64,000 nt of DNA. It comes from Candidatus Woesearchaeota archaeon (lineage in GTDB: Archaea; Nanobdellota; Nanobdellia; Woesearchaeales; 0-14-0-80-44-23). The stretch's first letter is position 1. Every line of letters begins with the position of its first letter. The notes beneath the pieces are model-generated. The model did not search any database. It was not told the origin of the DNA and worked only from the letters and a program-made list of their open reading frames with translations. Below are positions 12,581 to 64,000 of the stretch, piece after piece. Where the stretch lies: assembly GCA_038874135.1 (NCBI GenBank), contig JAVZCZ010000001.1, positions 288,968-352,967 on the forward strand. The letters run 5' to 3'. The translations under genes and the position numbers were made by a program.

Positions 12581-12581
12581 T

Positions 12582-12854: not shown

Positions 12855-12909
12855 AATTAATATTAAAAAGGCAGTAAGCTTTTTAAATATTGCTATTTTA
12901 ATTTTTAAA

Positions 12910-15548: not shown

Positions 15549-15624
15549 GTAGATTAGAATGATTTTAGATAACAATTTAAATATGAAAAATATTTTATAA
15601 TCCATACCTAAAAGAGGAAAATTT

Positions 15625-17430: not shown

Positions 17431-17571
17431 AAAGGGAATGGCTGAATTAGAGATAAATAAAGCAAAGATTACCAGAAAGACCTGTGAACTAAAAATGCAT
17501 GAAATTTAGAAACCTTTTTAAACCCTTCCCTTTACTCCCTTGTGAGGTAAAGATTTTGAAGGGGAATTTAA

Positions 17572-18174: not shown

Positions 18175-18190
18175 TTTGGGATGTTTTCTT

Positions 18191-22964: not shown

Positions 22965-24110
22965 TTGAATTTCGTCAGACGTGAAGTTCGTGCAGAATTT
23001 TTTTGTTTATTCTTCCTTGTTCTTCTTGTTTTATTTTCTTTAAGCGGCGAGGCTGCATTCAAGATAAGCTATGAGTGTCTTGCTCCCAACTGTGTAGAAG
23101 GCGAAACGATTGTTTGGAAGGTTAACATTTCCAATGTTGAAAGAGAGAGCATAAGGGTTTACAAGATTGAGATTAAGAATTTTGACGGTACAATTGCTTC
23201 ATATTCTGAACCTTTTGAGGTGCCATTCTCCCAAAGTAGGATTGTTACCTTTTTAGGCAAGGTTCCTGCACCTTATAATTTTACAACTGCGTATTATTAT
23301 CCATGCTTTACATTTTTTAGGATTGAAAATAAAACAGTCATTCCTGACGAGGAAAGGTGCTATAATGTTGTTGAGAACCTTACTGTGATGCCCAGCAGGA
23401 TTTTGCGTTGCTCTTCTGATGCCGATTGCCCTTCAGATTCCAGGTGTGAGCAGGGGCTGTGTTTTATGATAAGATGCGAGGGATGCACTCATGCTGAGGA
23501 GCACAAGTGTGTAAGTTATGAATGCTGTTCTAACGCTGAGTGTGCTTCTCGTATGGTGTGTAAGAATCATTCGTGTTCACTGCTGAACTGCCCAGAGGAT
23601 TATTACGCTGATGAGCACATCTGTAAGAAGCTTTCCTGCGGCATTTTTGAGGTTCCTAGGAGGAATGTGTGCGCGCCTAACTATATAATGTATATAAGTG
23701 CTGCTGCAGCTTTCTTAATAATTTTGGGAATTTCTACGATTGTGTTCCTCAAAAACTTCCGTGTTGGCGGAAAGACTTTGTGGAAGAAGATTAATGACAG
23801 TAGAGAAGTTAAGAAGTACAGAATGAGAGAGCAGAGATATCTCAAAGAGGCTGAGATTCATAGAGAGCTTCTTAAATATGAAAAAGGCAGGGAAGAAATT
23901 AAGTTTCACACTGCTGAGATGAAGAAGTACGAGCTGCTGGCATCTAAGGAGAGGAGTAAGTGGGAGAAGATTTTGGGATTGCAGACTTGTCCGGAGTGTC
24001 ACGCGCAGGTTGATGCTAAGCTTAGGATATGTCCGAAGTGCGGGGCACGCCTAAAGGACAGGAGCATCCGGGAAGAGGATTTTATTAGGGGAAGCCAGTA
24101 TGAAAGATAG
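22965..24110 (+). CDS. Cys-rich extracellular domain / single-TM / cytoplasmic zinc-ribbon protein
   Basis: Signal peptide, many Cys (CPSDSRCEQGLCFMIRCEGC...), TM near aa 245, C-terminal CPECHAQVDAKLRICPKCGARL. Confidence 0.4.
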   Translation: MNFVRREVRAEFFCLFFLVLLVLFSLSGEAAFKISYECLAPNCVEGETIVWKVNISNVERESIRVYKIEIKNFDGTIASYSEPFEVPFSQSRIVTFLGKVPAPYNFTTAYYYPCFTFFRIENKTVIPDEERCYNVVENLTVMPSRILRCSSDADCPSDSRCEQGLCFMIRCEGCTHAEEHKCVSYECCSNAECASRMVCKNHSCSLLNCPEDYYADEHICKKLSCGIFEVPRRNVCAPNYIMYISAAAAFLIILGISTIVFLKNFRVGGKTLWKKINDSREVKKYRMREQRYLKEAEIHRELLKYEKGREEIKFHTAEMKKYELLASKERSKWEKILGLQTCPECHAQVDAKLRICPKCGARLKDRSIREEDFIRGSQYER

Positions 24111-25587
24111 GGTTCATAGGGCTGATAAGGATTCAAAAGTTAAAGCAGTTCTGCTTGCCCTAGCAGTTTTTACATGTTTTTTCTCAGCATATGTTCCACA
24201 TTTAAAGAATCCCTTTCCAATTCATGTGGACGAGTGGCAGCATCTAGCTCAGATAATCGCGATTTCCGAAGGAAAGCCGAACTTGAATCCGTATGTTGGA
24301 GAGAGACATTTTGATTTTGAAATTTTGTTTCATCTAATTTGGGCTTTTCCAGCATTACTTATGGGACGGGTTGGTTTCATACTTTTCAGCAGGTTTATAC
24401 CTGCAATTCTTGCAGCCTTGTCTGGCTTTTGTCTTTACTTTTCTCTCAGAAAGATGAAGTTTTCATATATTGAAGCACTACTCTCAATTTTTATATTTGC
24501 AACTTTGAAGAGTGGACTTAACTTACTAGGAACTGCCTACTTCGTGCCGATGTCAGCAGCTTTCCCATTGATGTTTCTATTCCTGGGCTACTTTTCAGAA
24601 AGTGTTGCTGAGGGTAAGAATATTCTTATTTCCACCCTGCTGTGGGTTCTTCTTTTTATGATTTATCCGCCAAGTGCAACCATACTACTCCCAGCAATTA
24701 TTACCTATCCGCTTTTCTTTCCAAATTTTATCAAGAAGAGGGCTAAGCTTCTTTTAGTATTTGGGATAATTCTAACATGCATGATTATCACATCTCTGCT
24801 AATAAGATTAAATGGAGAGGTAGCTTTTTTTCTAATCTTAAAAAATCTGGTGTTCAAGTTCGGATGGGGAGGGTATGAGCTGAAATATTCAATTCCGTTG
24901 CTATTCACAATTCCAGGATTTATACTGGCGCTTATGGGAGCATATTTAAAAAAGGGGGAGGATAGGCCGCGCCTTCTGCTCTTGGCAGCATTTTTTTCAA
25001 TACTAATTTCTTTCATATTTCAGATTTTTAATGTGAGCTTTCTAGCACCTTATCAGAGAGTGGTTTATTATGTTATGATTTTTATGGTTCCACTCGCCGG
25101 GGTCGGATTATCTAAGGTTTACTTGTTCCTATATTCAAGGGTTGGGTCAACTTTTGCTGTTATTGCAGTCGTCCTAATTTTAGGTTTAATGTTCCAGCTT
25201 AAATATCCTTCTAAGAGTTTGAGCATTGACTATGCAAAGCCGATAATGAATATGGATGCTTGGAATGCTCTTCTATGGGCTAGGGATAATCTTCCTAATG
25301 ATTCAGTTATCCTCTCAGATTTTATGCTGTCTAGTGCAGTTACCCCTATAGCTGGGAGAGTAGTGCAGGCAGTTCTTCCCGCGCAGCTCGGCACATTTGA
25401 CAGGCAGGAGGAAAGGCTTGTAGATGCTATTAAGTTTTTTAATAATGGAGAGTGTTCTGAAAAATTGGGAATTATTGATAAGTGGAATGTGAGCGTGGTC
25501 ATCTCAGACAAGAGGGAAACCTGCCTTGAATTTGAGGGCTTTCAGTTAGCATATGCAAAAAATTATTTCATATATAGAAAGTATTAA
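24100..25587 (+). CDS. Polytopic membrane protein (possible GT-C-like)
   Basis: 10 or more hydrophobic helices. Start overlaps the upstream stop (ATGAAAGATAG). Confidence 0.4.
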   Translation: MKDRVHRADKDSKVKAVLLALAVFTCFFSAYVPHLKNPFPIHVDEWQHLAQIIAISEGKPNLNPYVGERHFDFEILFHLIWAFPALLMGRVGFILFSRFIPAILAALSGFCLYFSLRKMKFSYIEALLSIFIFATLKSGLNLLGTAYFVPMSAAFPLMFLFLGYFSESVAEGKNILISTLLWVLLFMIYPPSATILLPAIITYPLFFPNFIKKRAKLLLVFGIILTCMIITSLLIRLNGEVAFFLILKNLVFKFGWGGYELKYSIPLLFTIPGFILALMGAYLKKGEDRPRLLLLAAFFSILISFIFQIFNVSFLAPYQRVVYYVMIFMVPLAGVGLSKVYLFLYSRVGSTFAVIAVVLILGLMFQLKYPSKSLSIDYAKPIMNMDAWNALLWARDNLPNDSVILSDFMLSSAVTPIAGRVVQAVLPAQLGTFDRQEERLVDAIKFFNNGECSEKLGIIDKWNVSVVISDKRETCLEFEGFQLAYAKNYFIYRKY

Positions 25588-41717: not shown

Positions 41718-41930
41718 TCAGATCATATCTCCTATGGTTATGTCTGAAGAGTCTTCTATCATCCCTACAGTTGCCTGCTCAGGCGCCTCAGCTTCTTGAG
41801 CGGAGTTAGTCTGCTGATAGCTCTCGCCTTTAATGTTGGTTGATTTGCACCCTGAAATTAATGTTATTGCAAAAAGTCCCACTGCTATGAGTCCAAATAG
41901 GATTATTGCGTAGAGGATTTTCATACTCAT
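41718..41930 (-). CDS. Small lipoprotein-like secreted protein
   Basis: Signal peptide followed by Cys (LISGCKS). 4-nt overlap with the upstream ORF. Confidence 0.3.
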   Translation of the reverse strand: MSMKILYAIILFGLIAVGLFAITLISGCKSTNIKGESYQQTNSAQEAEAPEQATVGMIEDSSDITIGDMI

Positions 41931-42895
41931 CGCCTCCTGCTATTTTCATTCTTAGAGTTCCCAACTGGAATTGAAGAGCTGTTTTTATACCTGCTGTATA
42001 TTCTTTCAATTCTCTGACCTATACTCTCATTCCTTTGACGTAGCTGGTTAATTCTCTTTTCCAGGTTAAGCTGTCTCTCTTGAAGCCGCTCAGTCCTTCT
42101 TTCTAAAATCCTGTTCTTCACCGCCATATTATATACTGAGATTCTCTTCATATTTTCGTTTATCTTGCTCAAAAGCTTAACCCTCTCGCTCGGAGGTGCG
42201 GATTGGATTATGCCTTTGAGGTATTCGTGAACCTCTTTCTGCGATGCATTCCCACTTCTAACTGCTTCTATTAAAGAGTCATTATTGACTCCCAGCTTTT
42301 GAAGTGTAATGTTTAGGAACTGCGCATTGTAAGCTCTTCTCATCTGCTGTATCTGGTCACTTATGTTCTGAAGCTGTGTTCTTTCCATATCTTGAATCCT
42401 TAAGCGTATCCTATCCCTCGTTGCTTCTTTTAGCATTGGCGAAGCCGTCTTTCTGAACTCCTGAGTTAGGTTTATTGCTTGCGCCTTTATGTCCACAAAC
42501 TGCTGAGCAAGCTCATCAGCTGATTTAGTGGTTGTGTTAAGCTCGCTTATTAGCTCATTAACTTCGTCGCTAAGAGCGCGCAGCCCGTCCAGCTTTGCTT
42601 CCAGCATTGAAGTGTCTGTGCTGGAATTTGCACTCTTAATCTGTTCTATTATATATTCTCCTGCAGCTATGTTTCTCAGTATGCTCTTTTGCAGTTGAAG
42701 AAGCCTGACCTCTGCACCCAAGGGGTATAAAAAGGGGGTTATCTCGCTCTCATTAACCTCGGTGCTGTTGTCAGGCTGTGCTTCTTCTGCAAAGGCAACT
42801 CCTGATAATACTGCCAGGAGCCCGAGCATAAATATGACATACGCCAGTTTTCTATCCATGTTTTTCATCCTCCAGCCAGCATTCTCTGTAAGCAT
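41927..42895 (-). CDS. Secreted coiled-coil protein
   Basis: Signal peptide plus heptad-rich sequence. Confidence 0.35.
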   Translation of the reverse strand: MLTENAGWRMKNMDRKLAYVIFMLGLLAVLSGVAFAEEAQPDNSTEVNESEITPFLYPLGAEVRLLQLQKSILRNIAAGEYIIEQIKSANSSTDTSMLEAKLDGLRALSDEVNELISELNTTTKSADELAQQFVDIKAQAINLTQEFRKTASPMLKEATRDRIRLRIQDMERTQLQNISDQIQQMRRAYNAQFLNITLQKLGVNNDSLIEAVRSGNASQKEVHEYLKGIIQSAPPSERVKLLSKINENMKRISVYNMAVKNRILERRTERLQERQLNLEKRINQLRQRNESIGQRIERIYSRYKNSSSIPVGNSKNENSRRR

Positions 42896-45853: not shown

Positions 45854-45927
45854 GGGTCGGTAGCTCAGCCTGGGAGAGCACCACGCTGAAGACGTGGGTG
45901 TCCGGGATTCAAATTCCCGCCGACCCA
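45854..45927 (+). tRNA. tRNA-Phe (anticodon GAA)
   Basis: Hand-folded cloverleaf: acceptor GGGTCGG/CCGACCC, D-arm GCTC..GAGC, anticodon stem CCACG/CGTGG with loop CTGAAGA, T-arm CGGGA TTCAAAT TCCCG, discriminator A. No CCA encoded. Confidence 0.85.
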
Positions 45928-45970
45928 CTTTGAAATTTTCTGCAAAATTTTTTTACGCTGCTTTGAAGCA

Positions 45971-51518: not shown

Positions 51519-51965
51519 ATGAGGGCTCAGGTTCAGAATCAGGTATTTGTTTATATGATGGCAGCAGTAATAATGGGATTAGTAGTATATTTTGGTGCTA
51601 AGGGAGTTTGGATGATGACTAAAACTTCAAACGATGCTGCGATTTTAAAAATTGAAAGGGAAGTTTCCGACATTATCAGCAGACTCAACTATGGAGAGGA
51701 AAGAGAATACTCATTAAATGCCCCTTCTGGATATGAACTCTGTTTCATAAGCAGTCCAAGCTCTAACCAGAAGTATAGCCTTTTAAGTGAGGCGTTCAAA
51801 GAGCAGGGCAGCGGGGCATACTTAGTGGATATCAAGAGCAGGGTTCCAAAAAGAATAAGCAGCATTGAAAGGCCCTTGGAAGTTGCTGCAGGTTTGATAT
51901 GTTTCAGCACTTCTCAAAGTTTAAGGTTCTCGTATGATGGGAGAATTGTTTCTGTAAGCAAGTGA
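51519..51965 (+). CDS. Hypothetical N-terminally anchored protein
   Basis: ORF with a single N-terminal hydrophobic helix. Confidence 0.3.
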   Translation: MRAQVQNQVFVYMMAAVIMGLVVYFGAKGVWMMTKTSNDAAILKIEREVSDIISRLNYGEEREYSLNAPSGYELCFISSPSSNQKYSLLSEAFKEQGSGAYLVDIKSRVPKRISSIERPLEVAAGLICFSTSQSLRFSYDGRIVSVSK

Positions 51966-53307: not shown

Positions 53308-53511
53308 AGAAGAGAAAAAAAGAGAGAAAGAATAAGAAAGAATGAAAAATAAAACAAATATAATACACATAAGTAAATACTTTTAAATATTTGTAAATAT
53401 TTTTTTTCATGGATTAGATGGCAAAATTTATATATTAAATCAATATTAGTATTGCTTTATATGATAAAGTATGCATTAATGTTTATGTAAGTGTATTAGG
53501 GGTTGTTGGGT

Positions 53512-53664
53512 TTGAAAAAGAGAATAACTATAACTATTGAAGAGGAGCTCTTTGAAAGATTCAGGAGTTATTGTTCTCAAAACGCTATGAAAGTATCCTC
53601 AAAGATTGAAAAGCTTATTGAAGAATTTCTTAACAGTGAGAACAATGAGAGCTCTGTGAAATGA
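53512..53664 (+). CDS. Small ribbon-helix-helix (CopG/Arc-like) DNA-binding protein, unannotated, TTG start
   Basis: My own translation: (M)KKRITITIEEELFERFRSYCSQNAMKVSSKIEKLIEEFLNSENNESSVK. This is the beta-strand-then-helices RHH pattern. The stop overlaps the ATG of the giant ORF (ATGA). Confidence 0.4.
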   Translation: MKKRITITIEEELFERFRSYCSQNAMKVSSKIEKLIEEFLNSENNESSVK

Positions 53665-56600
53665 GAAGAAAAAAGAAAACCGGACTGGGAAAAAAGAGGT
53701 GGATTTTTGAGATTAGAAAAATTCAGCTGCTATACTTGTTAATAGCGTTCCTGCTCATAATATACGGATTTTTCCCATCTGATAAGGAGGCTTACTTCGG
53801 CTTTAAGGCATTTGCCTACACCTGCACCATTTCAAGCATAACAGAATCCTCAAATTATGCCTACGCTTCTGGAACGAATGTGTATTATGCAAATTTGGGA
53901 ACTGGAACATTCACAGTGAATGTTGATGCTGCAACTAACATTGGAGACTGCGAGGGAGGAACTGCAACTGTTTATAATGTTCAGTTTCCTAATACTGTAA
54001 GCTCCGGAGGATTAGACAGTGCAAGCCCGTGGGCTTGGAGTTATACTTTTACCTCTGGAAACACGAACAGCTATCTGTCTCAGTGGGTAACTTGCACCTA
54101 TCAATGCACATATAATGGAGATGTGTGGTATCCCAGCATGAACAGCATAAACACTTTCAATGTTTATTACGATAGTGCAGCTCCAACAATTGGCGCACCA
54201 GTAATGTATGCTGGGACAAGAACTGGAGACTCTTCAGGAAGCTACTTTAAGGGCACAATAAGCATTAGAAGCACAATCTCAGATTCTGGCTCGGGAATAC
54301 TAAATCCGAGCTGTATGGTGAGCATAAACGGGGGGGCCTGGACAAGCAGTGGAGTAACACAGGATGCTAGCTACTGCTACTATAATAACTATGCTCCTGG
54401 AGCAGATTTCAATATCAAATTTAATGTGAGCGACAACACCGGAAGGACTTCTGCCAGCAGCACTTCAACATTTTATTATGATGCAACAGCTCCGACAACT
54501 AGTGTTTCAGCTGTTCTGAAGGGCACCTCAACATCATACACTTTTAACACCTGGACCAAGAGCAACATAACTGTAAATGGGTCCTACTGTTCTGACGCTG
54601 GCTCGGGATGCTATGCTACTCATGTATGCGTTGATTCAAGCAACAGCTGCATTCCCTCATCAAATCCAATTCCAATAGATGTAACCTGCAGTGCTGGAAG
54701 CGTCTGCACGCAATATGTAAGATACAACAGCACTGACGCTCTTGCAAATTATGAAATTACTAAAAGCTCAACAATACTAATAGATATGCAAAGCCCGACA
54801 ACCACGGCAACAGCAGTAAACAGCACCGGAGCAAGCTACACCTTCAACACCTGGACAAAAAGCCCATACGTAAACGTAACACTAACATGCAACGACGCCT
54901 CAGGCTCAGGATGCTCACTCACACAATACTGCACAGACACAACAAACACCTGCACGCCAACCACAACATACACCACACCGGTACAAATAAACGCCCAGGG
55001 AATATCATACATAAGATACAACAGCACAGACAACGCCGGAAACACAGAAACAACCCAAAGCAAAACAATCAAAATAGACACAACAGCGCCTACAACAAGC
55101 ATAAACCCTAACGGACAGAGCTGCTCAGCAACCCAGCCGTCAGTAACTCTCTCGTGCTCAGACTCTTACTCCGGATGCTCAGCAACATACTACAAGATTG
55201 TAAGTGCTGCAACAACCTGTGATACAACAGGCATGAGCCTCGCAGCTGGAAACGTCCCTGTTAATTGCACACAGGGCTCATACTGCACAAATAAGATATG
55301 CACATACTCAGTAGATAATGTAGGCAACTCTGAAAGCGTCGTATCCTCAAACATTTACTATATAGACCTTGCAGGTCCAAATGCGCCAACAGGGCTTTCG
55401 CCATCTGGCTCCTGTCTTGGAACTTCAACTCCTTCATTATCTTGGAGTGCACCCTCAGATGTTGGCTGTTCCTCAGTTGCCGGCTATCAGGTTGAGATTT
55501 ATACAACTTCTGACTGCAGCGGAACTGCGCTCCAAACTGGCTATCCGAGTTCAAACAGCTGGACTCCAAGCGCTCTATCAACAGGCACATATTCGTGGAG
55601 AGTAAAGGCAAAAGATGCTCTAAACAATTGGGGTTCCTGGAGCGCCTGCGCATTAATGTATATTGATGTAAGCGCTCCGAGCACTACAATAAGTCCTAAC
55701 GGAAGAGCTTGGAACAACACTGATGTTACAGGAATAATCCTTTCAGCTTCGCAGGTGGGCTGCGGTTCTGCAGGCTCAACATATTATAAGGTTGTAAGCT
55801 CAGGAACGGTTTGCAACACTTCAGGAATGAGTACTTATGCAGCTCCATTTGACATAACCTGCCCAGCCGGTTCAGTATGCACATATAAGGTCTGCTATTA
55901 CAGCACTGACATCTATGGAAATACTGAAACCTTGAAGTCATCAAACATCTACTATATAGACAAGCAGAACCCGAATTGTTCAGTATCAGCCATATCAGAA
56001 GATTCTGGAAATTCGTATCAGTATGTTTCTGGAACCACAATATATTACAGCAATACCGACTCGCGCGCTGGAAGCTTCACTGTTAATGTTTCTGCTTCAG
56101 ACGGCTCTGGCTCTGGAATTGCTAAGGTTTATTTCCCCGAAACTGTCTCATCTGGCTTTAATGATACTGCCGCACCATACTCTCTACAGTACAGCTGGGA
56201 TTCCTCAGACACTTATTCTGGAACTGCCACGATATATGTATATGACAGTGTAAACAATTACAATAGCTGTACATTCACAATAGTTAGAGACATAAGTGCT
56301 CCATCAGGGGGTAGCATAAACTATTTCAGCGGAGTTACAAATGTTGTAAATCAGCAAATCAATGTTAGCTCCGGTTCTGATTCAGAATCTGGAGTATACA
56401 CTGCACAGCTTTACAGGCAGTCCGCAGTCCTCAACATTGGAGATTACACTTGCGGTGCTTATGGAGCCCTTACAGCAGTAGGTAACAGCTCTCCAATTAA
56501 GGATTATGTCCTTGACACTTTAAGTTCGGGTTACTGCTACAAGTACATCTATAATGTTAGCGATAATGTCGGTAATGTTGTGAGCTACACTTCAAGCAAT

Positions 56601-59600
56601 GAGATTAAAGTTGATACTAATACGCCGAGCATAATTTTTGTACCTCCAACAGATGGGGATGGAACTGCTACAAATAGAAATTACACTTTCATAAATGTAA
56701 CTTCTGACAAGGTATTGAGTTCTGCAGTTTTGGAGTGGAGCGGCACAAATGAGAGCATGTTAGGCTCGGGAAATAACTGGTACAAGAACAAGACAGGACT
56801 TGCTCAGGGATTATATACTTATAAAGTGTATGGTAACGATTCTGTAAATAATTGGGGAGAATCTTTGCAGAGGAGCATAATGATTGACTGGACCTCGCCA
56901 GCTACATCATTCAATCCCTTAAATCAGAGCTGCTCAGCAGCACAGCCGACAGTAAACATAACCTGCACAGACAACCTAGCAGGATGCAACAAAACATACT
57001 ACAAAATAATAAACTCCACACAAACCTGCAACAACACAAACATCATAGAATACACAACACCCATACAAATAACCTGCCCAGCAGGAGAATACTGCCAACA
57101 GAAAATATGCGCCTACTCCACAGACCTTGCAGCAAACCAGGAAACAATAAAACAATCGGGAAACTACACAACAGACCTCGCAGGACCAAACCCGGTAACA
57201 GGACTAAACCCAACAAACAACACACTACTAAACCAAAGCAGCATAACCTTCTCTTGGAATTCGGCGTCTGACATTGGATGCGCAGGTATAAGCAACTACA
57301 CTATCAACATCTACTCTGATGAAGCGTGCACAAGCCTAACACACACCAATACTACTACACTCACAACCTATGCTATAATACTAAGCGACGGAACATACTA
57401 TTGGAAAGTTGCAGCAGCAGATGCATTAGGCAACATGGGAAGCTGGAGCAACTGCACAAAATTAATAGTGGATACTACTCCGCCGAACACTTCATTTGTT
57501 CCAAACAGTCAGAGCTGCTCAGCAGCACAGCCGACAATAAACATAACCTGCACAGACAACCTAGCAGGATGCAACAAAACATACTACAAAATAATAAACT
57601 CCACACAAACCTGCAACAACACAAACACCATAGAATACACAACACCCATACAAATAACCTGCCCGGCAGGACAATACTGCCAACAGAAAATATGCGCCTA
57701 CTCCACAGACCTTGCAGCAAACCAGGAAACAATAAAACAATCAGGAAACTACACAACAGACCTCGCAGGACCAAACCCGGTAACAGGACTAAACCCAACA
57801 AACAACACAATGACTAATGATGACACTCCAACACTATCCTGGAACGCAGCCTCTGACATTGGATGCGCAGGTATAAGCAGCTATCACCTAGAAATATATA
57901 ATGGAAGCGGATGCTCGCAGCTGCTCATCTCAACTTCAACAACCTCAACAGAATATAACACGGCACATCTTGAAGATGGAAACTATTCCTGGAGGGTTTA
58001 TGCTGTAGACGCATTTGGAAATATTGGAGCCTGGAGCAACTGCAGTATAATAAAAATACACACTCAGGGACCGCCATGCGCTGTTACTAGCATAAGTGAA
58101 AATTCAGCATTTGCCTATACTCTTCAAAGCACAATATATTACAATAACAAGTCCTCAGGAGCCTACACTGTAAATGTTGAGGTCAATAATTCTGGAAGCG
58201 GAATTGCAAATGTTACATTCCCGGCAGCCACAAGCCCTGGCGGCGTAGACTCTGTAAGCCCGTATTTCTGGGATTACAATTTTAATTTGGCATCATCCTA
58301 CTCTGGAACTGCCACGATATACGCGTATGACACAATTGGAAACAATGAAAGCTGCTCATTCAGCGTTTATCTAGATAATGTAAACCCCGCACTAACTATC
58401 TTAGGAGTGCCAACACAGTGGCAGGCCTCAGATGCAACCATAAGCATTGAATGCTCTGATTCTGGAGCAGGATGCAATAACTCAAGGATTTATTATTTCA
58501 TGAACCAGAGCGGCGCCCACTGCCCTCCATTTTCAGAAGCACAATACCATCAGTATAATACTCCATTCTCAGTCAGTGCTCACACCTGGATGTGCGGCTA
58601 TGTTGAGGACTATGTAAATAATTCAAATCTCTCCTCCCCAATTGAGATAAGGGTTGATGAAATCCCGCCAACATCTTTAATAACAGGCCCTGCTGCTGGA
58701 AGCTGGTTCTCTTCTGACTTTGAAGTTTCAACAGCGAGTTCAGATAGCGGCGGTTCTGGATTGAACAAGTGTTATTATAAGGTTATTAGCAGTGGAGTAC
58801 AAACTGTGGATTATACAGAGTATCCTTGCAATTCGAACATTACAATAACTGTTGGGAGCGGCAAAGATTGCAGGTATGATGGTGTTGATGCTTGTGAAGT
58901 TCAGATTTATTCTGAGGATGTTGCAGGGAATCCTTCTGAGGTGGACTCAAGAAATTTCAGCATAGAGTTTGGAGCTCCACAAATCACGATTTACGACCCA
59001 GGCTGTTCTTTTGATTTAACTACAATATATTATGACATTTGGACTCTCAATGCGGGCATAAGCTCGTGCTCTTATGAGTGGAGTGCTGACGGCGTTTCTT
59101 GGAATCAGACCGGATTCAGCAGCTCAGGCTGCGTAAGGGGAGAAAATAATGTTTTGTTCAACACCTCATTATGTCGTGCTTCAGAATTTGGAAACTGTAC
59201 TGTAAGAATAAATGCTACAAGTGTAGCGGGAGTTACTGGAAGCGCGAACTTCACATTTGAAGTTGATAACAAAGCGCCTCAGATTACAATTTTGTCAACA
59301 AGCTCAACTGAGATCTGGTATGGTAATCTATCAACAGCAAACATAACTACTGCTATTTCAGAGAACGGCTGTCTGGCTAACTCGTGCTATTATGCCTTAA
59401 GCACTAATAATGGTTCAAGCTACGGGCTTTGGAAGCCGATGTCTTGCAACTCTGTAAAGAACATAAGCATTGCTGAAGAGTGCCCTGTTGAAGGACTGGA
59501 CATTTGCAAGGTTAAGGTGTATGCTAACGATTCAGAACATTCGGGAAATGAAGATGAAATGGCTGGTGCTTGGGATATTGACTTTACACCCCCAACAACT

Positions 59601-62600
59601 GTAGATGATGTAAAGGTTCCCAGTTGGGACAACTGGATAGTATATCTTGACACTTATTACTCAAATTATTACTCAAATGTTACTCTGAATTGCTCTGACT
59701 CTGCATCTGGTTGCAATAGGACTTATTACTGTACTTATAACATTGGAAACGAGAGCGAATGCAGCCCCAATATTGAGTCTTACCATAATCCAACTCAGTT
59801 TAACATATCCTGCGCCTTCAATTCCATCTGCACTAAAAAAGTCAGGTATTACAGCGTAGACACAGCTGGAAACTCAGAACAGATTAAGACGAGCGAGCCA
59901 ATATACATAGCAGTTAACTCTTATGTTAATAATACTAACGCTTCCAACTCCCAAGTGTATAATTGGTCAGATGTAAGGTATGCAAACCTTGAAAACTCAG
60001 TAGTAGATGGATGCTATGTCAGAAATTCCGTAATAATTAATTCAACAATAGTTAAAAATGCAGATTATACTACGCAGTGCAGAATAATTAATTCTGTAAT
60101 TACAAATTCAAAGATTGTAAGTTCAGAAGTTGTTGATAGTGTTGTAGATGAGTCAGACATTACAGGCAGCAGAATTGAATATTCAAATGTATTCCAAACT
60201 ATTGCATACTACAGTATAATCCGAATTACACAGATGCCCTGCGGCGGATTCGGAATGGTTGGCTCAGTAATAAGAGATGGAATACTTACCTCAGGATATG
60301 TGCGATATGGGGACTATGTTTATTACGCTCCAAAGAACATATCTGAAATATGCACGGGAATGCTGCCGAGGCCTGTTGGAACCTTGATTGCCAGCCCAGC
60401 TGTTGTTAGGAATGGAAGCGTGGTTAATTTAACTTACATTGGTAACGATGTCGGCTTTTCAGTGTTTGTAAATTATAGCGAGTTGAATTATGAGGAAAGC
60501 CTTATTGAATTGAAGGATGATGGCATTTATCCTGATTTGAGAAAGGATGATGGAGTATACACTGGCAGCATAGTTGTTAACATGGATGGAGACGGCGTTA
60601 AGATATTGAGGGCAGAGATTAATGACAATGTCAGAAATGTACTGCACACCAACACCGCTGTGATTTTGGACAATACCCCGCCGTATGTTCAGTTTAAAAT
60701 AGATGGCGGAAAAACAAATACTACTACAAGACATGTAGTTTTAAATATTGAATTTAGAGATGCCAATGGGGTATCTGCCTGCAGGTATGCTAATGAAGAC
60801 CTAAACTGGACTGCTTGGGAAGCGTGCTCTTCAACTAAGGCTTGGCTGCTCAGTGCTGGAAGCGGGGTTAAGGGTGTATTTGTTGAAGTTATGGATGTTG
60901 CTGGTAATATTGCTACCGTTAATGATTCAATACTGCTTATGGAAGGAGTGTACGATACTACGCCTCCTGAGAATCTTACTGTAATTGATGATGGTAATTA
61001 TACTAATAGCAATTCCACCTTGCATGCAAGGTGGAGTGCATTTGACCGCGAGTCAAAGGTGTTCTACCTTTACAGGATTGAAGAAGCAGATGGCGCTTGC
61101 GTGCCAATTTCTGGAAGCTGCGGTTGGCAGGACGCATTAGATGCTTCTGAAGTTACTGTTAACAATTTGACATTGGAAGAGGGACGCACTTACAGGTTCT
61201 GCGTTATAGCTCAGAATGCTTACTTCATAAACAGTTCTGAAGTTTGCTCTGACGGCATAACAACCGACTTTACTAATCCGCGAATTGATTATCTGCACGG
61301 AAGCATTCCTGAAGGCAGCTGGAGCAATTCAAACCTTGTGTTATTCTCCTGGAATGCTACTGATCCTGAATCAGCTGGAGTTTCAAGCGGAATATATGCT
61401 TACAGCTATGTCTTGGATTCAAAAAATGACACTACTCCTGACGAGGTGCCTGAAGGGGTTTTGGGAATGTTAAACAATGAGACTAATACTGCATTTTCAA
61501 ACCTGAAAGATGGAATATACTACTTCCATGTGAGAGCCAGAGACCTTGCAGGAAACTGGGGACCGGCCAGGCATTATGAAATTAGAATAGACAGAACACC
61601 TCCCACTACGCCTTTTATGCTGAATTCAAACCAGAGCACTAACACTAATGTAGTAATATTTAACTGGCTTCCGGCAATGGACTATGCTAGCGGCGTTGCT
61701 GGCTACTATCTCTCAGTGTACAGGACTGATACTGGAGCTTATATTCTTAACAACTCCTGGATTGGAAATGTCACTACATATCATGTTTCAGCAATAAATG
61801 GGGTTACATATCACGCATATGTCAGAGCAGCTGATAATGCTGGAAACATCGGTTTTGATTCGGACGTGGCTGGTGCAACTTATGATAATGAGCCGCCTAA
61901 GATAACTTTTAAGAAGCCAATCCCTGAAGGAATAGTGGTTAGCAATCAGCCAATTTTAACCTTAGATACTGATGAATATGCAAGTTGCAGTTATAATGGA
62001 GTTGAGTTTGCATATACCAACTCTACACATCACGAATCAAGAGTTACTGTTCTAGAAGGCCAAACTACAACATTTTCAATAATCTGTAGCGACAGGGTTG
62101 GCAATCAGGTGTCTGACTTCATAACTTTCACGGTCAATACAAGTGTAACTCCTGATTCAATTGAGATCATCTCTGTTGAGTCTCCTGCATATGCTAACAT
62201 TCCCGTAAGGGTTGTGATTCAGGTTAAAAAAAGCGGAGTTGTATTACAAGAATTGGACAGAGATAGGTTCCACCTGTGGCTTAACGGGAGTGAGCTTAAA
62301 GAGTTTAGCATAATCTCAATGGGTGCAAATTATACTCTTACATTCCTGGCTCCTGCCAAATCCGGGCTCTATTCCCTAGTAGTAGGAGTAGACTCTTTAA
62401 AGAGCAGCTCCAAGAGTCTGGAGGTTAGCGATTTAAGTTTGCTTTTGATGTATGAAGGCGCACTCTCATCCACCAAGACAACTGAAAAGATGACCTACGC
62501 TGTTGAGAGCAATCACAGCATAGGAATTGCTTCTGACAGCTCAAAAGTTATCACTGAGAGCTCTTCAGGACAGCTTTCTGTCTATTCAGATGCTTCGGGA

Positions 62601-62870
62601 AGCGCTTACATATTTATAGTGAAGCCTGAGGAGAAGCCCGAAAGCAGGACTGGTTATCTTAAGAGTGGAAAGTTCCAGGAGATACAGTCGCCGGCCTTTG
62701 GATATAGAATTACGGCTGACAAGTATTTCATTAAGAATATACTCTCATACTCTGACATATTGCTGAATATGCCCCGAGAGCTTGGTCCTGGAACTCACAC
62801 TTTGATAATTAAGAATAATGGGCTGCTTCCGGATGGAAGGGTGAATATTAGCATAAGTGTGGTGAGCTGA
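53661..62870 (+). CDS. Giant (3069 aa) secreted/cell-surface protein with repeated Cys-pair Ig/Fn3-like modules, very many N-x-S/T sequons and a beta-helix-like segment
   Basis: N-terminal signal anchor. Recurring about 100-aa modules (..TTS.. YTFNTWTKS .. C..C) and Fn3-like segments (SWSAPSDVGCSSVAGYQVEIY...YSWRVKAKDALNNWGSWS). Short IxNSxI-type repeats near aa 2110-2180. Confidence 0.7.
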   Translation: MRRKKKTGLGKKRWIFEIRKIQLLYLLIAFLLIIYGFFPSDKEAYFGFKAFAYTCTISSITESSNYAYASGTNVYYANLGTGTFTVNVDAATNIGDCEGGTATVYNVQFPNTVSSGGLDSASPWAWSYTFTSGNTNSYLSQWVTCTYQCTYNGDVWYPSMNSINTFNVYYDSAAPTIGAPVMYAGTRTGDSSGSYFKGTISIRSTISDSGSGILNPSCMVSINGGAWTSSGVTQDASYCYYNNYAPGADFNIKFNVSDNTGRTSASSTSTFYYDATAPTTSVSAVLKGTSTSYTFNTWTKSNITVNGSYCSDAGSGCYATHVCVDSSNSCIPSSNPIPIDVTCSAGSVCTQYVRYNSTDALANYEITKSSTILIDMQSPTTTATAVNSTGASYTFNTWTKSPYVNVTLTCNDASGSGCSLTQYCTDTTNTCTPTTTYTTPVQINAQGISYIRYNSTDNAGNTETTQSKTIKIDTTAPTTSINPNGQSCSATQPSVTLSCSDSYSGCSATYYKIVSAATTCDTTGMSLAAGNVPVNCTQGSYCTNKICTYSVDNVGNSESVVSSNIYYIDLAGPNAPTGLSPSGSCLGTSTPSLSWSAPSDVGCSSVAGYQVEIYTTSDCSGTALQTGYPSSNSWTPSALSTGTYSWRVKAKDALNNWGSWSACALMYIDVSAPSTTISPNGRAWNNTDVTGIILSASQVGCGSAGSTYYKVVSSGTVCNTSGMSTYAAPFDITCPAGSVCTYKVCYYSTDIYGNTETLKSSNIYYIDKQNPNCSVSAISEDSGNSYQYVSGTTIYYSNTDSRAGSFTVNVSASDGSGSGIAKVYFPETVSSGFNDTAAPYSLQYSWDSSDTYSGTATIYVYDSVNNYNSCTFTIVRDISAPSGGSINYFSGVTNVVNQQINVSSGSDSESGVYTAQLYRQSAVLNIGDYTCGAYGALTAVGNSSPIKDYVLDTLSSGYCYKYIYNVSDNVGNVVSYTSSNEIKVDTNTPSIIFVPPTDGDGTATNRNYTFINVTSDKVLSSAVLEWSGTNESMLGSGNNWYKNKTGLAQGLYTYKVYGNDSVNNWGESLQRSIMIDWTSPATSFNPLNQSCSAAQPTVNITCTDNLAGCNKTYYKIINSTQTCNNTNIIEYTTPIQITCPAGEYCQQKICAYSTDLAANQETIKQSGNYTTDLAGPNPVTGLNPTNNTLLNQSSITFSWNSASDIGCAGISNYTINIYSDEACTSLTHTNTTTLTTYAIILSDGTYYWKVAAADALGNMGSWSNCTKLIVDTTPPNTSFVPNSQSCSAAQPTINITCTDNLAGCNKTYYKIINSTQTCNNTNTIEYTTPIQITCPAGQYCQQKICAYSTDLAANQETIKQSGNYTTDLAGPNPVTGLNPTNNTMTNDDTPTLSWNAASDIGCAGISSYHLEIYNGSGCSQLLISTSTTSTEYNTAHLEDGNYSWRVYAVDAFGNIGAWSNCSIIKIHTQGPPCAVTSISENSAFAYTLQSTIYYNNKSSGAYTVNVEVNNSGSGIANVTFPAATSPGGVDSVSPYFWDYNFNLASSYSGTATIYAYDTIGNNESCSFSVYLDNVNPALTILGVPTQWQASDATISIECSDSGAGCNNSRIYYFMNQSGAHCPPFSEAQYHQYNTPFSVSAHTWMCGYVEDYVNNSNLSSPIEIRVDEIPPTSLITGPAAGSWFSSDFEVSTASSDSGGSGLNKCYYKVISSGVQTVDYTEYPCNSNITITVGSGKDCRYDGVDACEVQIYSEDVAGNPSEVDSRNFSIEFGAPQITIYDPGCSFDLTTIYYDIWTLNAGISSCSYEWSADGVSWNQTGFSSSGCVRGENNVLFNTSLCRASEFGNCTVRINATSVAGVTGSANFTFEVDNKAPQITILSTSSTEIWYGNLSTANITTAISENGCLANSCYYALSTNNGSSYGLWKPMSCNSVKNISIAEECPVEGLDICKVKVYANDSEHSGNEDEMAGAWDIDFTPPTTVDDVKVPSWDNWIVYLDTYYSNYYSNVTLNCSDSASGCNRTYYCTYNIGNESECSPNIESYHNPTQFNISCAFNSICTKKVRYYSVDTAGNSEQIKTSEPIYIAVNSYVNNTNASNSQVYNWSDVRYANLENSVVDGCYVRNSVIINSTIVKNADYTTQCRIINSVITNSKIVSSEVVDSVVDESDITGSRIEYSNVFQTIAYYSIIRITQMPCGGFGMVGSVIRDGILTSGYVRYGDYVYYAPKNISEICTGMLPRPVGTLIASPAVVRNGSVVNLTYIGNDVGFSVFVNYSELNYEESLIELKDDGIYPDLRKDDGVYTGSIVVNMDGDGVKILRAEINDNVRNVLHTNTAVILDNTPPYVQFKIDGGKTNTTTRHVVLNIEFRDANGVSACRYANEDLNWTAWEACSSTKAWLLSAGSGVKGVFVEVMDVAGNIATVNDSILLMEGVYDTTPPENLTVIDDGNYTNSNSTLHARWSAFDRESKVFYLYRIEEADGACVPISGSCGWQDALDASEVTVNNLTLEEGRTYRFCVIAQNAYFINSSEVCSDGITTDFTNPRIDYLHGSIPEGSWSNSNLVLFSWNATDPESAGVSSGIYAYSYVLDSKNDTTPDEVPEGVLGMLNNETNTAFSNLKDGIYYFHVRARDLAGNWGPARHYEIRIDRTPPTTPFMLNSNQSTNTNVVIFNWLPAMDYASGVAGYYLSVYRTDTGAYILNNSWIGNVTTYHVSAINGVTYHAYVRAADNAGNIGFDSDVAGATYDNEPPKITFKKPIPEGIVVSNQPILTLDTDEYASCSYNGVEFAYTNSTHHESRVTVLEGQTTTFSIICSDRVGNQVSDFITFTVNTSVTPDSIEIISVESPAYANIPVRVVIQVKKSGVVLQELDRDRFHLWLNGSELKEFSIISMGANYTLTFLAPAKSGLYSLVVGVDSLKSSSKSLEVSDLSLLLMYEGALSSTKTTEKMTYAVESNHSIGIASDSSKVITESSSGQLSVYSDASGSAYIFIVKPEEKPESRTGYLKSGKFQEIQSPAFGYRITADKYFIKNILSYSDILLNMPRELGPGTHTLIIKNNGLLPDGRVNISISVVS
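56924..57818. repeat. Near-perfect direct duplication with 588-bp period (two about 310-bp near-identical cores) inside the giant gene
   Basis: cagagctgctcagcagcacagccgaca... recurs at 56924 and 57512 with only a handful of substitutions over about 300 bp. Antisense and shifted-frame ORFs (56984..57271, 57326..57817) give identical peptides. Confidence 0.8.
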
Positions 62871-63391
62871 TGGTTCACAAGGTTAAGAGGGGACAGGTGT
62901 ATGTATTTGCTGCTCTTGTGATTTGCGTTTTACTCTACGCCCTCTATGCTGAAACTGGTTCAAAGAGTGTAAAGCTTAAGCAGTATAACAAATGCTCAGA
63001 ACTTGCGCGGGAGATTCCCAAGATGTTTGATTATGCGCTTTATTCAAACCAGAATGGGTTAAGCGTGCTTTCTGAGTTTAATAATAAATTTTCAGAGTAT
63101 GCTTTGGCATCTGGAGAGCCTCTTGGATTCGTATACGGAGCAGCCATTGATAGGAAGATTTATCTTGCAAGTAACTCTTGTAATGGCTGCGAACTCATAG
63201 TTTATTATTCAGACGGAAACGCTTCAGTTGTTGAAAACAACTGCTCTTATGAAGTTGAGGCTGAAAACATAAGCGGAATTGAACTGGTATTTCAAGGAAG
63301 AAACTACAGCATGATGCCAGAATCAATTTCGGGAATAAAGATTTTTTGCTATTCAGGAGATTCAAACAACTTACAGATAAATTATCAATAA
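62870..63391 (+). CDS. Putative archaeal type IV pilin-like protein (class III signal peptide)
   Basis: MVHKVKRGQ|VYVFAALVICVLLYAL fits a K/R-G-Q cleavage motif followed by a hydrophobic helix. The start overlaps the giant gene stop (TGATG). Confidence 0.35.
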   Translation: MVHKVKRGQVYVFAALVICVLLYALYAETGSKSVKLKQYNKCSELAREIPKMFDYALYSNQNGLSVLSEFNNKFSEYALASGEPLGFVYGAAIDRKIYLASNSCNGCELIVYYSDGNASVVENNCSYEVEAENISGIELVFQGRNYSMMPESISGIKIFCYSGDSNNLQINYQ

Positions 63392-63411
63392 GAAAAAAGA
63401 GGGGTTAGAAA

Positions 63412-63876
63412 ATGCGTTTTGGAAGAGGCAGCAGGAAGGGAGAGTCCGCCTGGATTGCCTGGGTGATGATAACTGCATTTATGGTCGTGATGGGCGCTCT
63501 TATCTATAAGTGGAGCTCCTCATATGCAGCAGCCTCTGCAGAGCAGGTTGAGGAAAATGCTTATAGAGAAAATTGTAGGGATGTTAGCGTAAATATTAAG
63601 GAAGCCTGCCAGGACAACTATACATTAACACTAAATATTGAAAATGTTGGAAGCGTTAATGTGGATAAGGTAATCATAAACATGTTTGACGCTTTTGGTT
63701 ATGGAGCGTCCAGAGAGCAAATGCTTAGAATAAAGCCTGGTTTGAGCAGCATGTGTACTTTTGTAAAGCAGTATGCAATCAGCACAGTTAAAGTTGTGCC
63801 CGCGATAAGAGTGAAAAACAAGTGGATAGTATGCTCTGAAAGGGAGGTGGAATTTACAGGGGTAAAGTATTGTTAA
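63412..63876 (+). CDS. Hypothetical small N-terminally anchored protein (possible pilin-like)
   Basis: MRFGRGSRKGESAWIAWVMITAFMVVMGALI N-terminus. Confidence 0.3.
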   Translation: MRFGRGSRKGESAWIAWVMITAFMVVMGALIYKWSSSYAAASAEQVEENAYRENCRDVSVNIKEACQDNYTLTLNIENVGSVNVDKVIINMFDAFGYGASREQMLRIKPGLSSMCTFVKQYAISTVKVVPAIRVKNKWIVCSEREVEFTGVKYC

Positions 63877-63933
63877 AAGAAAAAATATAAAAATAAAAAA
63901 AAGAAGTGAATAATTAAAAAGAGGTGGTATGAA

Positions 63934-64000
63934 ATGCCTGAAAAATTTAAAAAGGAATTTATAGATTTAGAAAAGAAGATTGTGGATGTCCAGCTTGAGA
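63934..64000 (+). CDS. ORF start running off window end (MPEKFKKEFIDLEKKIVDVQLE...), function unknown
   Basis: ATG preceded by the Shine-Dalgarno-like sequence gaggtgg. Only 22 codons are visible. Confidence 0.2.
   Translation, partial: MPEKFKKEFIDLEKKIVDVQLE

What the first reader, a model, noticed from the sequence alone, without database searches (positions are those of the whole stretch)
53512..63876. RHH regulator - giant sequon-rich adhesin-like protein - two pilin-like genes, with a 588-bp near-identical internal duplication
A roughly 50-aa ribbon-helix-helix ORF with a TTG start overlaps by ATGA the start of a 3069-aa secreted protein. That protein is built from repeated Cys-pair Ig/Fn3-like modules, carries dozens of N-x-S/T sequons consistent with the upstream glycosylation locus, and has a beta-helix-like segment. 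Two consecutive repeat modules (56924-57230 and 57512-57818) are almost identical at the DNA level, indicating recent duplication and a substrate for recombinational length variation. Two small ORFs follow with overlapping stop/start, one carrying a KRGQ|hydrophobic class III signal-peptide-like N-terminus. The layout suggests a co-regulated surface-attachment module, for example host-cell attachment in an episymbiotic DPANN-like archaeon.
Basis: partly seen in the sequence, partly recalled or inferred. Interest (0 to 1): 0.6.

Follow-up and report, generated by a model that had tools for sequence, protein, structure and literature searches.

The report
Giant adhesin heading archaeal pilus operon
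The region is the start of a type IV pilus operon in a tiny, probably host-dependent Woesearchaeota archaeon, and its first large gene encodes a 3069-residue, sugar-decorated, bead-on-a-string surface protein that is a good candidate for how these cells attach to others.

Summary
A 50-aa ribbon-helix-helix gene (53512-53664) overlaps by ATGA an intact 3069-aa ORF (53661-62870), followed by two genes with class III (prepilin-type) N-termini.

In a contig 100% identical to the window from 54795 onward, and in orthologous loci, the operon continues. It adds a small membrane protein, three more pilin-like genes (one passes the archaellin/pilin N-terminal model), a T2SSE/PilB-type ATPase and a platform protein split into two genes.

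The organism is a Candidatus Woesearchaeota (DPANN) MAG.

The giant protein has an ordinary N-terminal signal, not a class III one. It has about 25 Ig-like modules and 95 N-x-S/T sequons (58 expected). Its last 327 aa form a conserved module with no Pfam match. That module occurs in 232 cluster representatives, almost always at the extreme C-terminus. In 25 of 27 testable loci it sits just upstream of the same pilin genes.

The "recent duplication" is an old duplication. Its OmpL47-type half has been homogenised by gene conversion, with a 585-bp offset, not 588.

Apparent structural variants in other MAGs are joins with a paralogous giant gene across a shared module. These are either real recombination or assembly chimeras.

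The most likely function is a pilus-associated adhesin. This is inferred, not shown.

The parts
53308..53511 (+). AT-rich intergenic region upstream of the RHH gene. Probably holds the operon promoter and operator.
   Evidence: Read directly. It contains TATA-like runs (tttaaata, atttatatatt, ctttatatga), the direct repeat GTAAATA at about 53373 and 53392, and GGGG(T) 8 nt before the TTG at 53512. The promoter role is inferred only; the scan tool does not cover archaeal promoters.
53512..53664 (+). 50-aa ribbon-helix-helix protein with a TTG start. Likely a transcriptional (auto)regulator.
   Evidence: Pfam ParG scores 22.4 bits against a cut-off of 21.4. RHH_5 and DUF6364 fall below their cut-offs. 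NCBI annotation uses the same start. Orthologues lie directly upstream of the giant gene in L011 and L012 only.
53661..62870 (+). Giant secreted protein of 3069 aa, a chain of Ig-like modules.
   Evidence: Identical to P0330. Collinear with P0002 over residues 1-3066.
53661..53819 (+). N-terminal basic stretch plus hydrophobic segment, ending in the conserved FGF(K/S)AFA|YTC (aa 1-53). An ordinary signal peptide or signal anchor, not class III.
   Evidence: N-termini of the window protein, P0002, P0003 and P0004 were compared. Cleavage was not predicted with a dedicated tool.
54795..55010 (+). OmpL47-type module shared with a paralogous giant gene at another locus. It is the point where other MAG assemblies cross between the two genes.
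   Evidence: 96.8% and 95.4% nucleotide identity to L044 12313-12528 and 7476-7691. L009 and L001 switch to the paralogue here.
56814..57398 (+). First copy of the 195-aa unit (OmpL47-type module plus Fn3-like module; aa 1052-1246).
57399..57983 (+). Second copy of the 195-aa unit (aa 1247-1441).
56928..57215 (+). Homogenised block, copy 1 (288 bp).
   Evidence: 98.3% identical to 57513-57800.
57513..57800 (+). Homogenised block, copy 2 (288 bp).
59916..60365 (+). Single-copy segment with a roughly 5-residue periodicity (aa 2086-2235). Possibly a beta-helix.
   Evidence: Shared with 34 other proteins in the hit set. Pfam gives only non-significant hits to beta-helical families. The fold was not tested.
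59589..62858 (+). C-terminal roughly 1100 aa that stay collinear even in the most distant orthologue examined.
   Evidence: P0004 shows 38% identity over aa 1977-3066, while the N-terminal two-thirds is rearranged.
61887..62867 (+). Conserved C-terminal module (aa 2743-3069): two Ig-like domains plus a third beta-rich domain. No Pfam family.
   Evidence: 232 representatives at E<=1e-3, with a median of 12 residues after the match in the 150 best-scoring ones listed. AlphaFold2 pLDDT 87. Filamin-type Ig in the middle. No Pfam hit. Syntenic with pilin genes.
62870..63391 (+). g1: 173-aa pilin-like protein (KRG|QVYVFAALV), translationally coupled to the giant gene.
63412..63876 (+). g2: 154-aa pilin-like protein (RKG|ESAWIAWVMI).
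   Evidence: The KKG|[IV]S..ISW motif is conserved in about 25 loci. Weak NCBIfam UpsA hits: 6.9e-5 here and 7e-4 in L013.
63936..64000 (+). Start of g3, a 108-aa protein with a coiled coil and two transmembrane segments. Cut by the window end.
   Evidence: Sequence equals L001 11065-11391. Conserved in most loci.

Best explanation
The region 53512-64000 is the promoter-proximal part of a roughly 19-kb operon. The operon builds a type IV pilus-like filament in a Woesearchaeota (DPANN) archaeon.

Gene order: RHH regulator, giant protein, g1, g2, g3, g4 (probable major pilin), g5, g6, PilB/FlaI-type ATPase, small coiled-coil protein, then two half-size FlaJ/TadC platform proteins.

Proposed mechanism:
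1. The giant protein is exported by the general secretion route, since it has an ordinary signal rather than a prepilin signal.
2. It is probably N-glycosylated.
3. It forms a chain of about 25 Ig-like modules.
4. Its conserved C-terminal 327-aa module ties it to the pilus apparatus, most likely by docking on the pilin-like proteins encoded next to it. This is analogous to PilY1/PilC sitting on minor pilins.
5. The modular N-terminal two-thirds, which varies between species, points outward as the adhesive part.
6. Repeated modules are kept similar by gene conversion, both within the gene and with a second giant gene elsewhere in the genome. This supplies variation.
7. The RHH protein is a lineage-specific regulator at the head of the transcript.

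Shown: gene content, synteny, domain content, conservation pattern and gene-conversion signature. Inferred: co-transcription, docking, orientation, adhesion and glycosylation.
For: Operon content:
- Searches give the downstream genes. L001 is 100% identical to the window from 54795 onward.
- The ATPase carries T2SSE plus PilB3_C. The two T2SSF proteins match the N-terminal and C-terminal halves of ArlJ.
- g4 passes TIGR02537 (29.2 bits against a cut-off of 20).

Class III motifs:
- They are conserved in g1, g2 and g6 across about 20 species.

Synteny:
- The same order is found at 61%, 56% and 38% identity of the giant protein. One of these loci has a different upstream neighbourhood.
- 25 of 27 loci with at least 2 kb of downstream sequence carry the pilin genes after the C-terminal module, and 15 reach the ATPase.

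C-terminal module:
- It is always terminal and is conserved, while the N-terminal part varies and host proteins range from about 750 to 6033 aa.

Tight coupling:
- ATGA and TGATG overlaps join the genes.

Gene conversion:
-.

Literature:
- Large adhesin-like proteins in archaeal type IV filament loci, and split platforms in 'system 1' loci including DPANN, are described in PMC4858521 and bioRxiv 10.64898/2026.04.22.720090.
Against: - There is no direct evidence of interaction between the giant protein and the pilus.
- The g1 model gives no structural match to solved pilins.
- No prepilin peptidase was found among the window ORFs scanned, nor within about 10 kb of the orthologous operons.
- One family member (6033 aa, L014) is not next to pilus genes.
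- If the N-terminal hydrophobic segment is an uncleaved anchor, the orientation is reversed.
Confidence: 0.55

Rival explanations
1. The giant protein is a membrane-anchored stalk. The N-terminal hydrophobic segment is not cleaved. The variable modules form the shaft, and the conserved C-terminal module is the distal end, which binds a conserved partner such as the cell's own pilus or a conserved host structure.
For: The conserved AFA motif lies about 14 residues after the hydrophobic core, which is far for a signal peptidase site. There is no C-terminal anchor of any kind. The most conserved motif (NPSFGY) sits beside a low-confidence, possibly partner-ordered loop.
Against: Adhesins usually vary at the distal end, and here the variable end would be next to the membrane. 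The FGF(K/S)AFA|YTC motif is conserved like a cleavage site. No signal-peptide predictor was available.
Confidence: 0.2
2. The giant protein is an envelope or S-layer-like component encoded with the pilus genes. It would let the filament pass or be anchored in the cell wall, and would not be an adhesin.
Against: Family members range from about 750 to 6033 aa with unrelated N-terminal content (LamG, beta-helix, Fn3), which is hard to reconcile with a lattice. Two to four such genes can sit in tandem. No C-terminal membrane anchor is present.
Confidence: 0.1
3. The pilus-like machine works as a secretion piston, like a type II secretion system, and the giant protein is its cargo. The protein would be released or handed to a host cell.
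For: The component set is the same as a minimal type II secretion or pseudopilus system: ATPase, platform and several minor-pilin-like proteins. The cargo gene comes first in the operon.
Against: Archaea have no outer membrane to cross. g4 looks like an ordinary filament-forming pilin. No precedent was found in the papers read.
Confidence: 0.08
4. The 3069-aa ORF is a chimeric assembly across repeats rather than a real gene.
For: Other MAGs of the same species break, or switch to a paralogous gene, inside the repeated module. L044 has a 100-N gap at the same kind of module.
Against: Three MAGs give the same 3069-aa product on contigs of 910, 398 and 31 kb. A 61%-identical orthologue from another species aligns in one piece over residues 1-3066.
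Confidence: 0.04

Closest known systems
Archaeal type IV filament 'system 1' / Epd-like pilus loci (clade 1 of Makarova et al. 2016, PMC4858521; bioRxiv 10.64898/2026.04.22.720090)
   Same: One FlaI/PilB-type ATPase. Platform encoded by two genes. Many different class III signal proteins in one operon. Large adhesin-like proteins in the locus. Reported in methanogens, Thermococcales and some DPANN. Q at +1 in g1 and g6, as I recall for Epd minor pilins (from memory).
   Different: No dedicated EppA-type peptidase in or near the locus. The probable major pilin g4 has a globular domain, whereas the Epd major pilin is described as lacking one. The large protein has no DUF2341. ATPase clade membership was not tested by phylogeny.
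PilY1 / PilC tip-associated adhesins of bacterial type IV pili
   Same: Large non-pilin proteins with an ordinary signal peptide, encoded beside minor pilin genes. Variable N-terminal part and conserved C-terminal part. For PilY1/PilC, as I recall, the C-terminal part docks on the minor pilin complex. Here the same layout suggests the same logic.
   Different: The C-terminal module here is three beta-sandwich-type domains, not a beta-propeller. There is no sequence relationship. The protein is three times longer. Docking is not shown.
Bacterial giant Ig-repeat adhesins (SiiE, LapA/RTX adhesins, OmpL47/Big-domain proteins)
   Same: Long chains of Ig-like modules, repeat homogenisation and surface exposure. 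OmpL47-type and Big_13/Big_3_3 domains are detected.
   Different: No type I secretion signal, RTX repeats or cell-wall sorting signal. Linked to a type IV pilus operon in an archaeon.
SPEARE proteins of Nanohaloarchaeota (PMC6642349)
   Same: Giant surface proteins in DPANN archaea, proposed to mediate host interaction.
   Different: As I recall, SPEARE proteins contain protease and restriction endonuclease domains. No protease or nuclease domains were detected here. The lineage differs, and here the gene is physically linked to pilus genes.

Membership tests
Archaeal type IV filament (TFF) system | Secretion ATPase of the T2SSE / FlaI-PilB family in the locus | tested here: met
   525-aa product 2.2 kb beyond the window end, in L001 (100% identical to the window from 54795 onward). 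T2SSE 5e-33 and PilB3_C 7e-7. Present in 15 related loci.
Archaeal type IV filament (TFF) system | FlaJ/TadC (T2SSF) platform protein | tested here: met
   Two genes (629 and 301 aa), each with one T2SSF domain. They match the first and second halves of ArlJ.
Archaeal type IV filament (TFF) system | Filament subunits with a class III signal peptide | tested here: met
   g4 passes TIGR02537 (29.2 bits against a cut-off of 20). g1, g2 and g6 carry conserved [KR][GAS]|x motifs followed by a hydrophobic helix. No dedicated predictor such as FlaFind was available.
Archaeal type IV filament (TFF) system | Class III signal peptidase (Peptidase_A24: PibD/FlaK/EppA) | tested here: not met
   Not among the window ORFs scanned, nor in the gene tables of L001, L011, L012 and L013. 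It may lie elsewhere in the 910-kb genome, which was not searched.
TFF 'system 1' / Epd-like pilus | Platform protein split into two genes | tested here: met
   The feature is as described in bioRxiv 10.64898/2026.04.22.720090.
TFF 'system 1' / Epd-like pilus | Major pilin without a globular C-terminal domain; dedicated EppA peptidase in the cluster | tested here: not met
   g4 is 173 aa with a beta-rich C-terminal part. No peptidase is in the cluster.
TFF 'system 1' / Epd-like pilus | ATPase branching within the system 1 clade | not tested
   No reference ATPase set was available for a tree.
PilY1/PilC-type or DUF2341 pilus adhesins | C-terminal beta-propeller (PilY1/PilC domain) or DUF2341 domain | tested here: not met
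Ribbon-helix-helix (CopG/Arc/MetJ/ParG) DNA-binding proteins | N-terminal beta strand followed by two helices, matching an RHH profile | tested here: met
   ParG scores 22.4 bits against a cut-off of 21.4. RHH_5 (19.9 against 26) and DUF6364 (23.8 against 27.3) fall below their cut-offs. This is a marginal pass. DNA binding was not tested.
OmpL47-type / bacterial Ig-like repeat proteins | Repeated OmpL47-type barrel or Big domains above curated cut-offs | tested here: met
   NF047446 scores 99.4 bits against a cut-off of 40, in 5 stretches. Ig_Rha78A_N 64.9/27.4, Big_3_3 39.3/27, Big_13 32.9/27.
Woesearchaeota pilus-linked giant proteins (family defined here by the C-terminal module) | About 320-aa module at the extreme C-terminus, with the gene directly upstream of g1-type pilin genes | tested here: met
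   The window protein is the query, so this is membership by construction. The family itself is supported by 232 representatives, and pilin genes follow the module in 25 of 27 testable loci.

The most novel reading that the evidence does not exclude
Woesearchaeota carry a host-recognition device with three features:
- A giant glycoprotein docks through a dedicated, lineage-wide C-terminal module onto a type IV pilus.
- Its outward-facing modules are exchanged by homologous recombination with a second, silent or separately regulated giant gene elsewhere in the genome.
- On this reading, the cross-locus joins seen in MAGs (L009, L001) are real recombinants, giving switchable attachment specificity comparable to pilin antigenic variation.
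Probability: 0.15. Interest if true: 0.8.

Novelty: new variant of a known kind. Interest (0 to 1): 0.5.

Why it matters
How DPANN archaea find and hold on to host cells is largely unknown, and Woesearchaeota have, to my knowledge, no cultured, genetically tractable member.

This locus gives a concrete, lineage-wide candidate. It is a pilus operon whose first structural gene is a hypervariable giant protein with a conserved docking-like module that no curated family describes.

It offers testable handles:
- the C-terminal module,
- the invariant Q+1 pilin-like partner g1,
- the NPSFGY motif.

It also carries a warning for MAG users. Near-identical modules shared by two giant genes make assemblies break, or cross over between distant loci.

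Tried and rejected
1. Self-BLAST of the giant protein returned only the identity hit. It was replaced by a fragment-against-whole search.
2. The shorter giant products in other MAGs (2404, 1766, 1330 and 502 aa) looked like length variants. They are truncations at contig ends.
3. L009 (1100-aa product) and L001 (at least 3380 aa) looked like strain-specific alleles of this locus. They are joins with the paralogous gene P0006 at L044.
4. A word-indexed search with g1 alone found only itself. A profile of g1 sequences taken from related loci found 59 clusters.
5. The search for related loci with the 28-sequence alignment failed because the alignment was too diverse. A 6-sequence alignment worked.
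It was repeated with database proteins.
9. Rfam and tRNA scans found only tRNA-Phe at 45854-45928.
10. Iterated profiles of the A, B and C module types merged into one general Ig profile. Exact copy numbers per type are therefore not given.
11. Looked for AglB/STT3 and Peptidase_A24 among the window ORFs. Neither was found.
Full report

Yes.
- The ORF listing and translation show a small ORF ending at 53664. Its TGA overlaps the ATG (53661) of an uninterrupted 3069-codon ORF ending at 62870.
- A 173-aa ORF (62870-63391, TGATG overlap) follows, then a 154-aa ORF (63412-63876) after a 20-nt spacer.
- The annotated start of the small ORF is the TTG at 53512 (50 aa). It has a GGGG(T) motif 8 nt upstream. 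NCBI's annotation of conspecific MAGs uses that start.
- The giant product is identical to MEM3370438.1, on a 909,956-bp contig that is evidently the source of the window. Two other MAGs give 3069-aa products differing at 15-19 residues.
- A 3088-aa orthologue from a different species aligns in a single piece over residues 1-3066 at 61% identity. The long ORF is therefore a real gene and not a collapsed assembly.

**2. The repeat**

- The near-identical DNA is 56928-57215 against 57513-57800: 288 bp at 98% identity, with a 585-bp offset.
- The repeating unit is 195 aa, made of an OmpL47-type module followed by an Fn3-like module. Only the first half is near-identical. The second half is about 53% identical at the protein level.
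- Comparison with the orthologue P0002 shows that both units already existed in the common ancestor. The Fn3 halves pair up orthologously: 49-50% with the corresponding unit, 37-44% with the other.
- The OmpL47-type halves, by contrast, are more alike within each genome than between species. They are 91% identical here and 65% identical in P0002, against 50-55% across species.
- This is concerted evolution by gene conversion, not a recent duplication. A conspecific MAG (L002) has two further positions of copy 1 converted to the copy 2 state.

**3. What the giant protein is made of**

- HMM scans find OmpL47-type barrel domains (5 stretches, E 1e-28), Ig_Rha78A_N, Big_3_3, Big_13 and Y_Y_Y.
- Fragment-against-self searches and iterated profiles show beta-sandwich modules of 95-110 aa filling residues about 160-2780. 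A 110-aa 'A' module recurs three times, at 55-170, 773-893 and 1473-1587.
- One single-copy segment (2086-2235) has a five-residue periodicity. It gets only non-significant hits to beta-helical families, so the 'beta-helix' remains a guess.
- There are 95 N-x-S/T sequons against 58 expected from composition.
- The N-terminus is basic, then hydrophobic, then carries a conserved FGF(K/S)AFA|YTC motif shared with the closest orthologues P0002 and P0003. This is an ordinary secretion signal or anchor, not a prepilin signal.
- There is no C-terminal transmembrane segment.

**4. The surroundings: a complete pilus operon**

- Looking up the 173-aa protein found nine contigs from conspecific MAGs. One of them (L001) is 100% identical to the window from 54795 to 64000 and continues past the window end.
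- Its downstream genes, in order:
  - g3, 108 aa, a coiled coil plus two membrane segments. Its start is visible at 63936 in the window.
  - g4, 173 aa, RRG|VSPLIATVLLIAFAVALGA.
  - g5, 143 aa.
  - g6, 252 aa.
  - A 525-aa ATPase.
  - An 83-87-aa coiled-coil protein.
  - Two membrane proteins of 629 and 301 aa.
- The ATPase has T2SSE and PilB3_C domains.
- The two membrane proteins each have one T2SSF domain. They match the first and second halves of ArlJ/FlaJ respectively.
- g4 passes the curated archaellin/type IV pilin N-terminal model.
- g1, g2 and g6 carry [KR][GAS]|Q or KG|xS motifs followed by a hydrophobic helix. These motifs are conserved in about 20 species, and the Q after the presumed cleavage site is invariant in g1.

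**5. Organism and conservation**

- Sources name the MAGs Candidatus Woesearchaeota.
- Orthologous giant genes at 61%, 56% and 38% identity are each followed by the same ten genes. The most distant one sits in a different upstream neighbourhood and has no RHH gene.
- Conservation along the giant protein is uneven. The C-terminal roughly 1100 aa stay collinear, while the N-terminal two-thirds is rearranged.

**6. The C-terminal module**

- The last 327 aa, searched against 1.84 billion cluster representatives, hit 232 proteins at E<=1e-3. Among the 150 best-scoring hits listed, the match ends a median of 12 residues before the C-terminus. Host proteins range from about 750 to 6033 aa.
- No Pfam family covers the module.
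- A profile search of the PDB recognises a filamin-type Ig repeat in the middle.
- AlphaFold2 (pLDDT 87) gives two Ig-like domains and a third beta-rich domain. A low-confidence stretch (274-296) lies next to the most conserved motif, NPSFGY.
- A scan of one genome per species found 28 loci:
  - 21 are titled Woesearchaeota;
  - 1 is titled Nanoarchaeota;
  - 1 is titled simply 'archaeon';
  - 5 are third-party bins titled 'uncultured Methanosarcinales archaeon', probably mislabelled.
- Twenty-seven loci have at least 2 kb downstream, counting two loci found by protein look-up. In 25 of them, g1/g2/g4/g6-type genes follow on the same strand, usually within 100 nt, and 15 reach the ATPase.
- In some loci two to four large secreted proteins sit in tandem before g1.
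- One 6033-aa member (L014) is not followed by pilus genes.

**7. The apparent structural variants**

- Most conspecific contigs break inside the giant gene.
- Two of them differ in structure:
  - L009 shares the first 473 codons and then runs into a stop at 1100 aa.
  - L001 has different sequence upstream of 54795.
- Both foreign parts belong to a second giant gene (P0006, LamG-containing). It lies at another locus of a conspecific genome (L044) that has no pilus genes:
  - L009 11284-13623 matches L044 12313-14652 at 99.4%.
  - L001 1-1633 matches L044 8963-10595 at 98.8%.
- The switch points are copies of the OmpL47-type module, which are 95-97% identical between the two genes.
- Three facts point to assembly ambiguity, which I consider somewhat more likely:
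  - the breakpoints in the paralogue differ;
  - contigs end close by;
  - L044 itself has a scaffold gap at such a module.
- Real inter-locus recombination is not excluded. The high identity of the shared module shows that sequence exchange between the two genes does occur.

**8. The RHH gene**

- It passes the ParG model marginally (22.4 bits against a cut-off of 21.4) and falls below cut-off for RHH_5 and DUF6364.
- Orthologues precede the giant gene only in the two closest relatives.
- It is therefore a lineage-specific addition, plausibly an autoregulator given the ATGA coupling. It is not a defining part of the system.

**9. Glycosylation context**

- The window contains the following:
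  - a GT4 glycosyltransferase and a PIG-L deacetylase at 46.0-47.9 kb;
  - a low-GC island at about 1.8-19 kb with GT2, GT1/GT4, two nucleotide-sugar epimerase/dehydratases and a weak PMT_2-like membrane protein.
- No oligosaccharyltransferase was recognised. The link to the sequons is loose.

**10. Mechanism and comparison**

- The best reading is a pilus-associated adhesin. The protein would be secreted by the general route, held by its conserved C-terminal module on the pilin-like proteins encoded next to it, and would point its variable modules outward.
- The layout parallels PilY1/PilC of bacterial type IV pili. However, the defining propeller is absent, and so is DUF2341, so it is not a member of those families.
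- The operon resembles 'system 1'/Epd-like loci in having a split platform and many pilins, and such loci are reported in DPANN. It lacks a cluster-encoded peptidase and a domain-less major pilin, and the ATPase clade was not tested.
- Large adhesin-like proteins in archaeal type IV filament loci are already described in general terms.
- What I found in none of the papers read or the Pfam/NCBIfam libraries searched:
  - the Woesearchaeota-wide family defined by the uncatalogued C-terminal module;
  - its strict linkage to g1;
  - the gene-conversion dynamics.
- Hence the verdict is a new variant of a known kind, with moderate interest.

Noticed in passing
window 51519-51965 (+): A 148-aa ORF between the SMC and CCA-adding enzyme genes starts MRAQVQNQVFVYMMAAVIMGLVVYFGA. 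This is the same [KR][GA]Q-plus-hydrophobic-helix start as g1 and g6. It has no Pfam family. A 154-aa gene sits at the same position in L011 and L012. It may be a stand-alone pilin-like gene.
   Followed up: partly
L044 1-22481 (GCA_038731275.1 contig 1, 398-421 kb): A second giant-protein locus in a conspecific genome. It holds two HTH regulator genes, a 1127-aa protein and a roughly 2490-aa LamG-containing protein split by a 100-N gap. It has no pilus genes. It shares OmpL47-type modules at 95-97% nucleotide identity with window 54795-55010.
   Followed up: partly
window 61887-62867 (aa 2743-3069): In the first Ig domain of the C-terminal module, T28, E30, C34, H49, E50, C67 and D69 are invariant or nearly so across 28 diverse members. 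This could be a metal site or a cross-link-forming site. The NPSFGY motif (268-273) adjoins the only low-confidence stretch of the model.
   Followed up: no
L033, L035, L040, L043 (upstream of g1), and several proteins: Some family members, and neighbouring large proteins, carry an extra short C-terminal tail ending V[FY]QY[GD]. The window protein lacks it. Its meaning is unknown.
   Followed up: no
window ~1775-19084: A low-GC island (26-31% GC against about 41% elsewhere). It carries GT2, GT1/GT4, two NDP-sugar epimerase/dehydratases, a B12-binding radical SAM enzyme, another radical SAM enzyme, an 11-TM PMT_2-like protein, a YcaO protein and a GT2. It looks like a variable glycan and/or peptide-modification island.
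   Followed up: partly
L013 5468-6250 and 9495-9962: A Woesearchaeota contig encodes LGT (prolipoprotein diacylglyceryl transferase) and Peptidase_A8 (signal peptidase II), which are bacterial-type lipoprotein enzymes. The peptidase gene lies directly upstream of the giant gene.
   Followed up: no
L006 (GCA_038883955.1, 2.8-kb contig): A contig 99.8% identical to window 61361-64000 is binned and named 'Candidatus Micrarchaeia archaeon'. This is probably a mis-binned fragment.
   Followed up: no
L031 15872-18918; L029 6802-9969: In two related loci the pilus ATPase gene is unusual. In L031 it is split into 382-aa and 622-aa ORFs. In L029 it is extended to 1055 aa.
   Followed up: no
window 24100-25587 (+) and 41927-42895 (-): An 11-TM 495-aa protein and a 322-aa secreted protein have no Pfam match at E<=0.01.
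   Followed up: no
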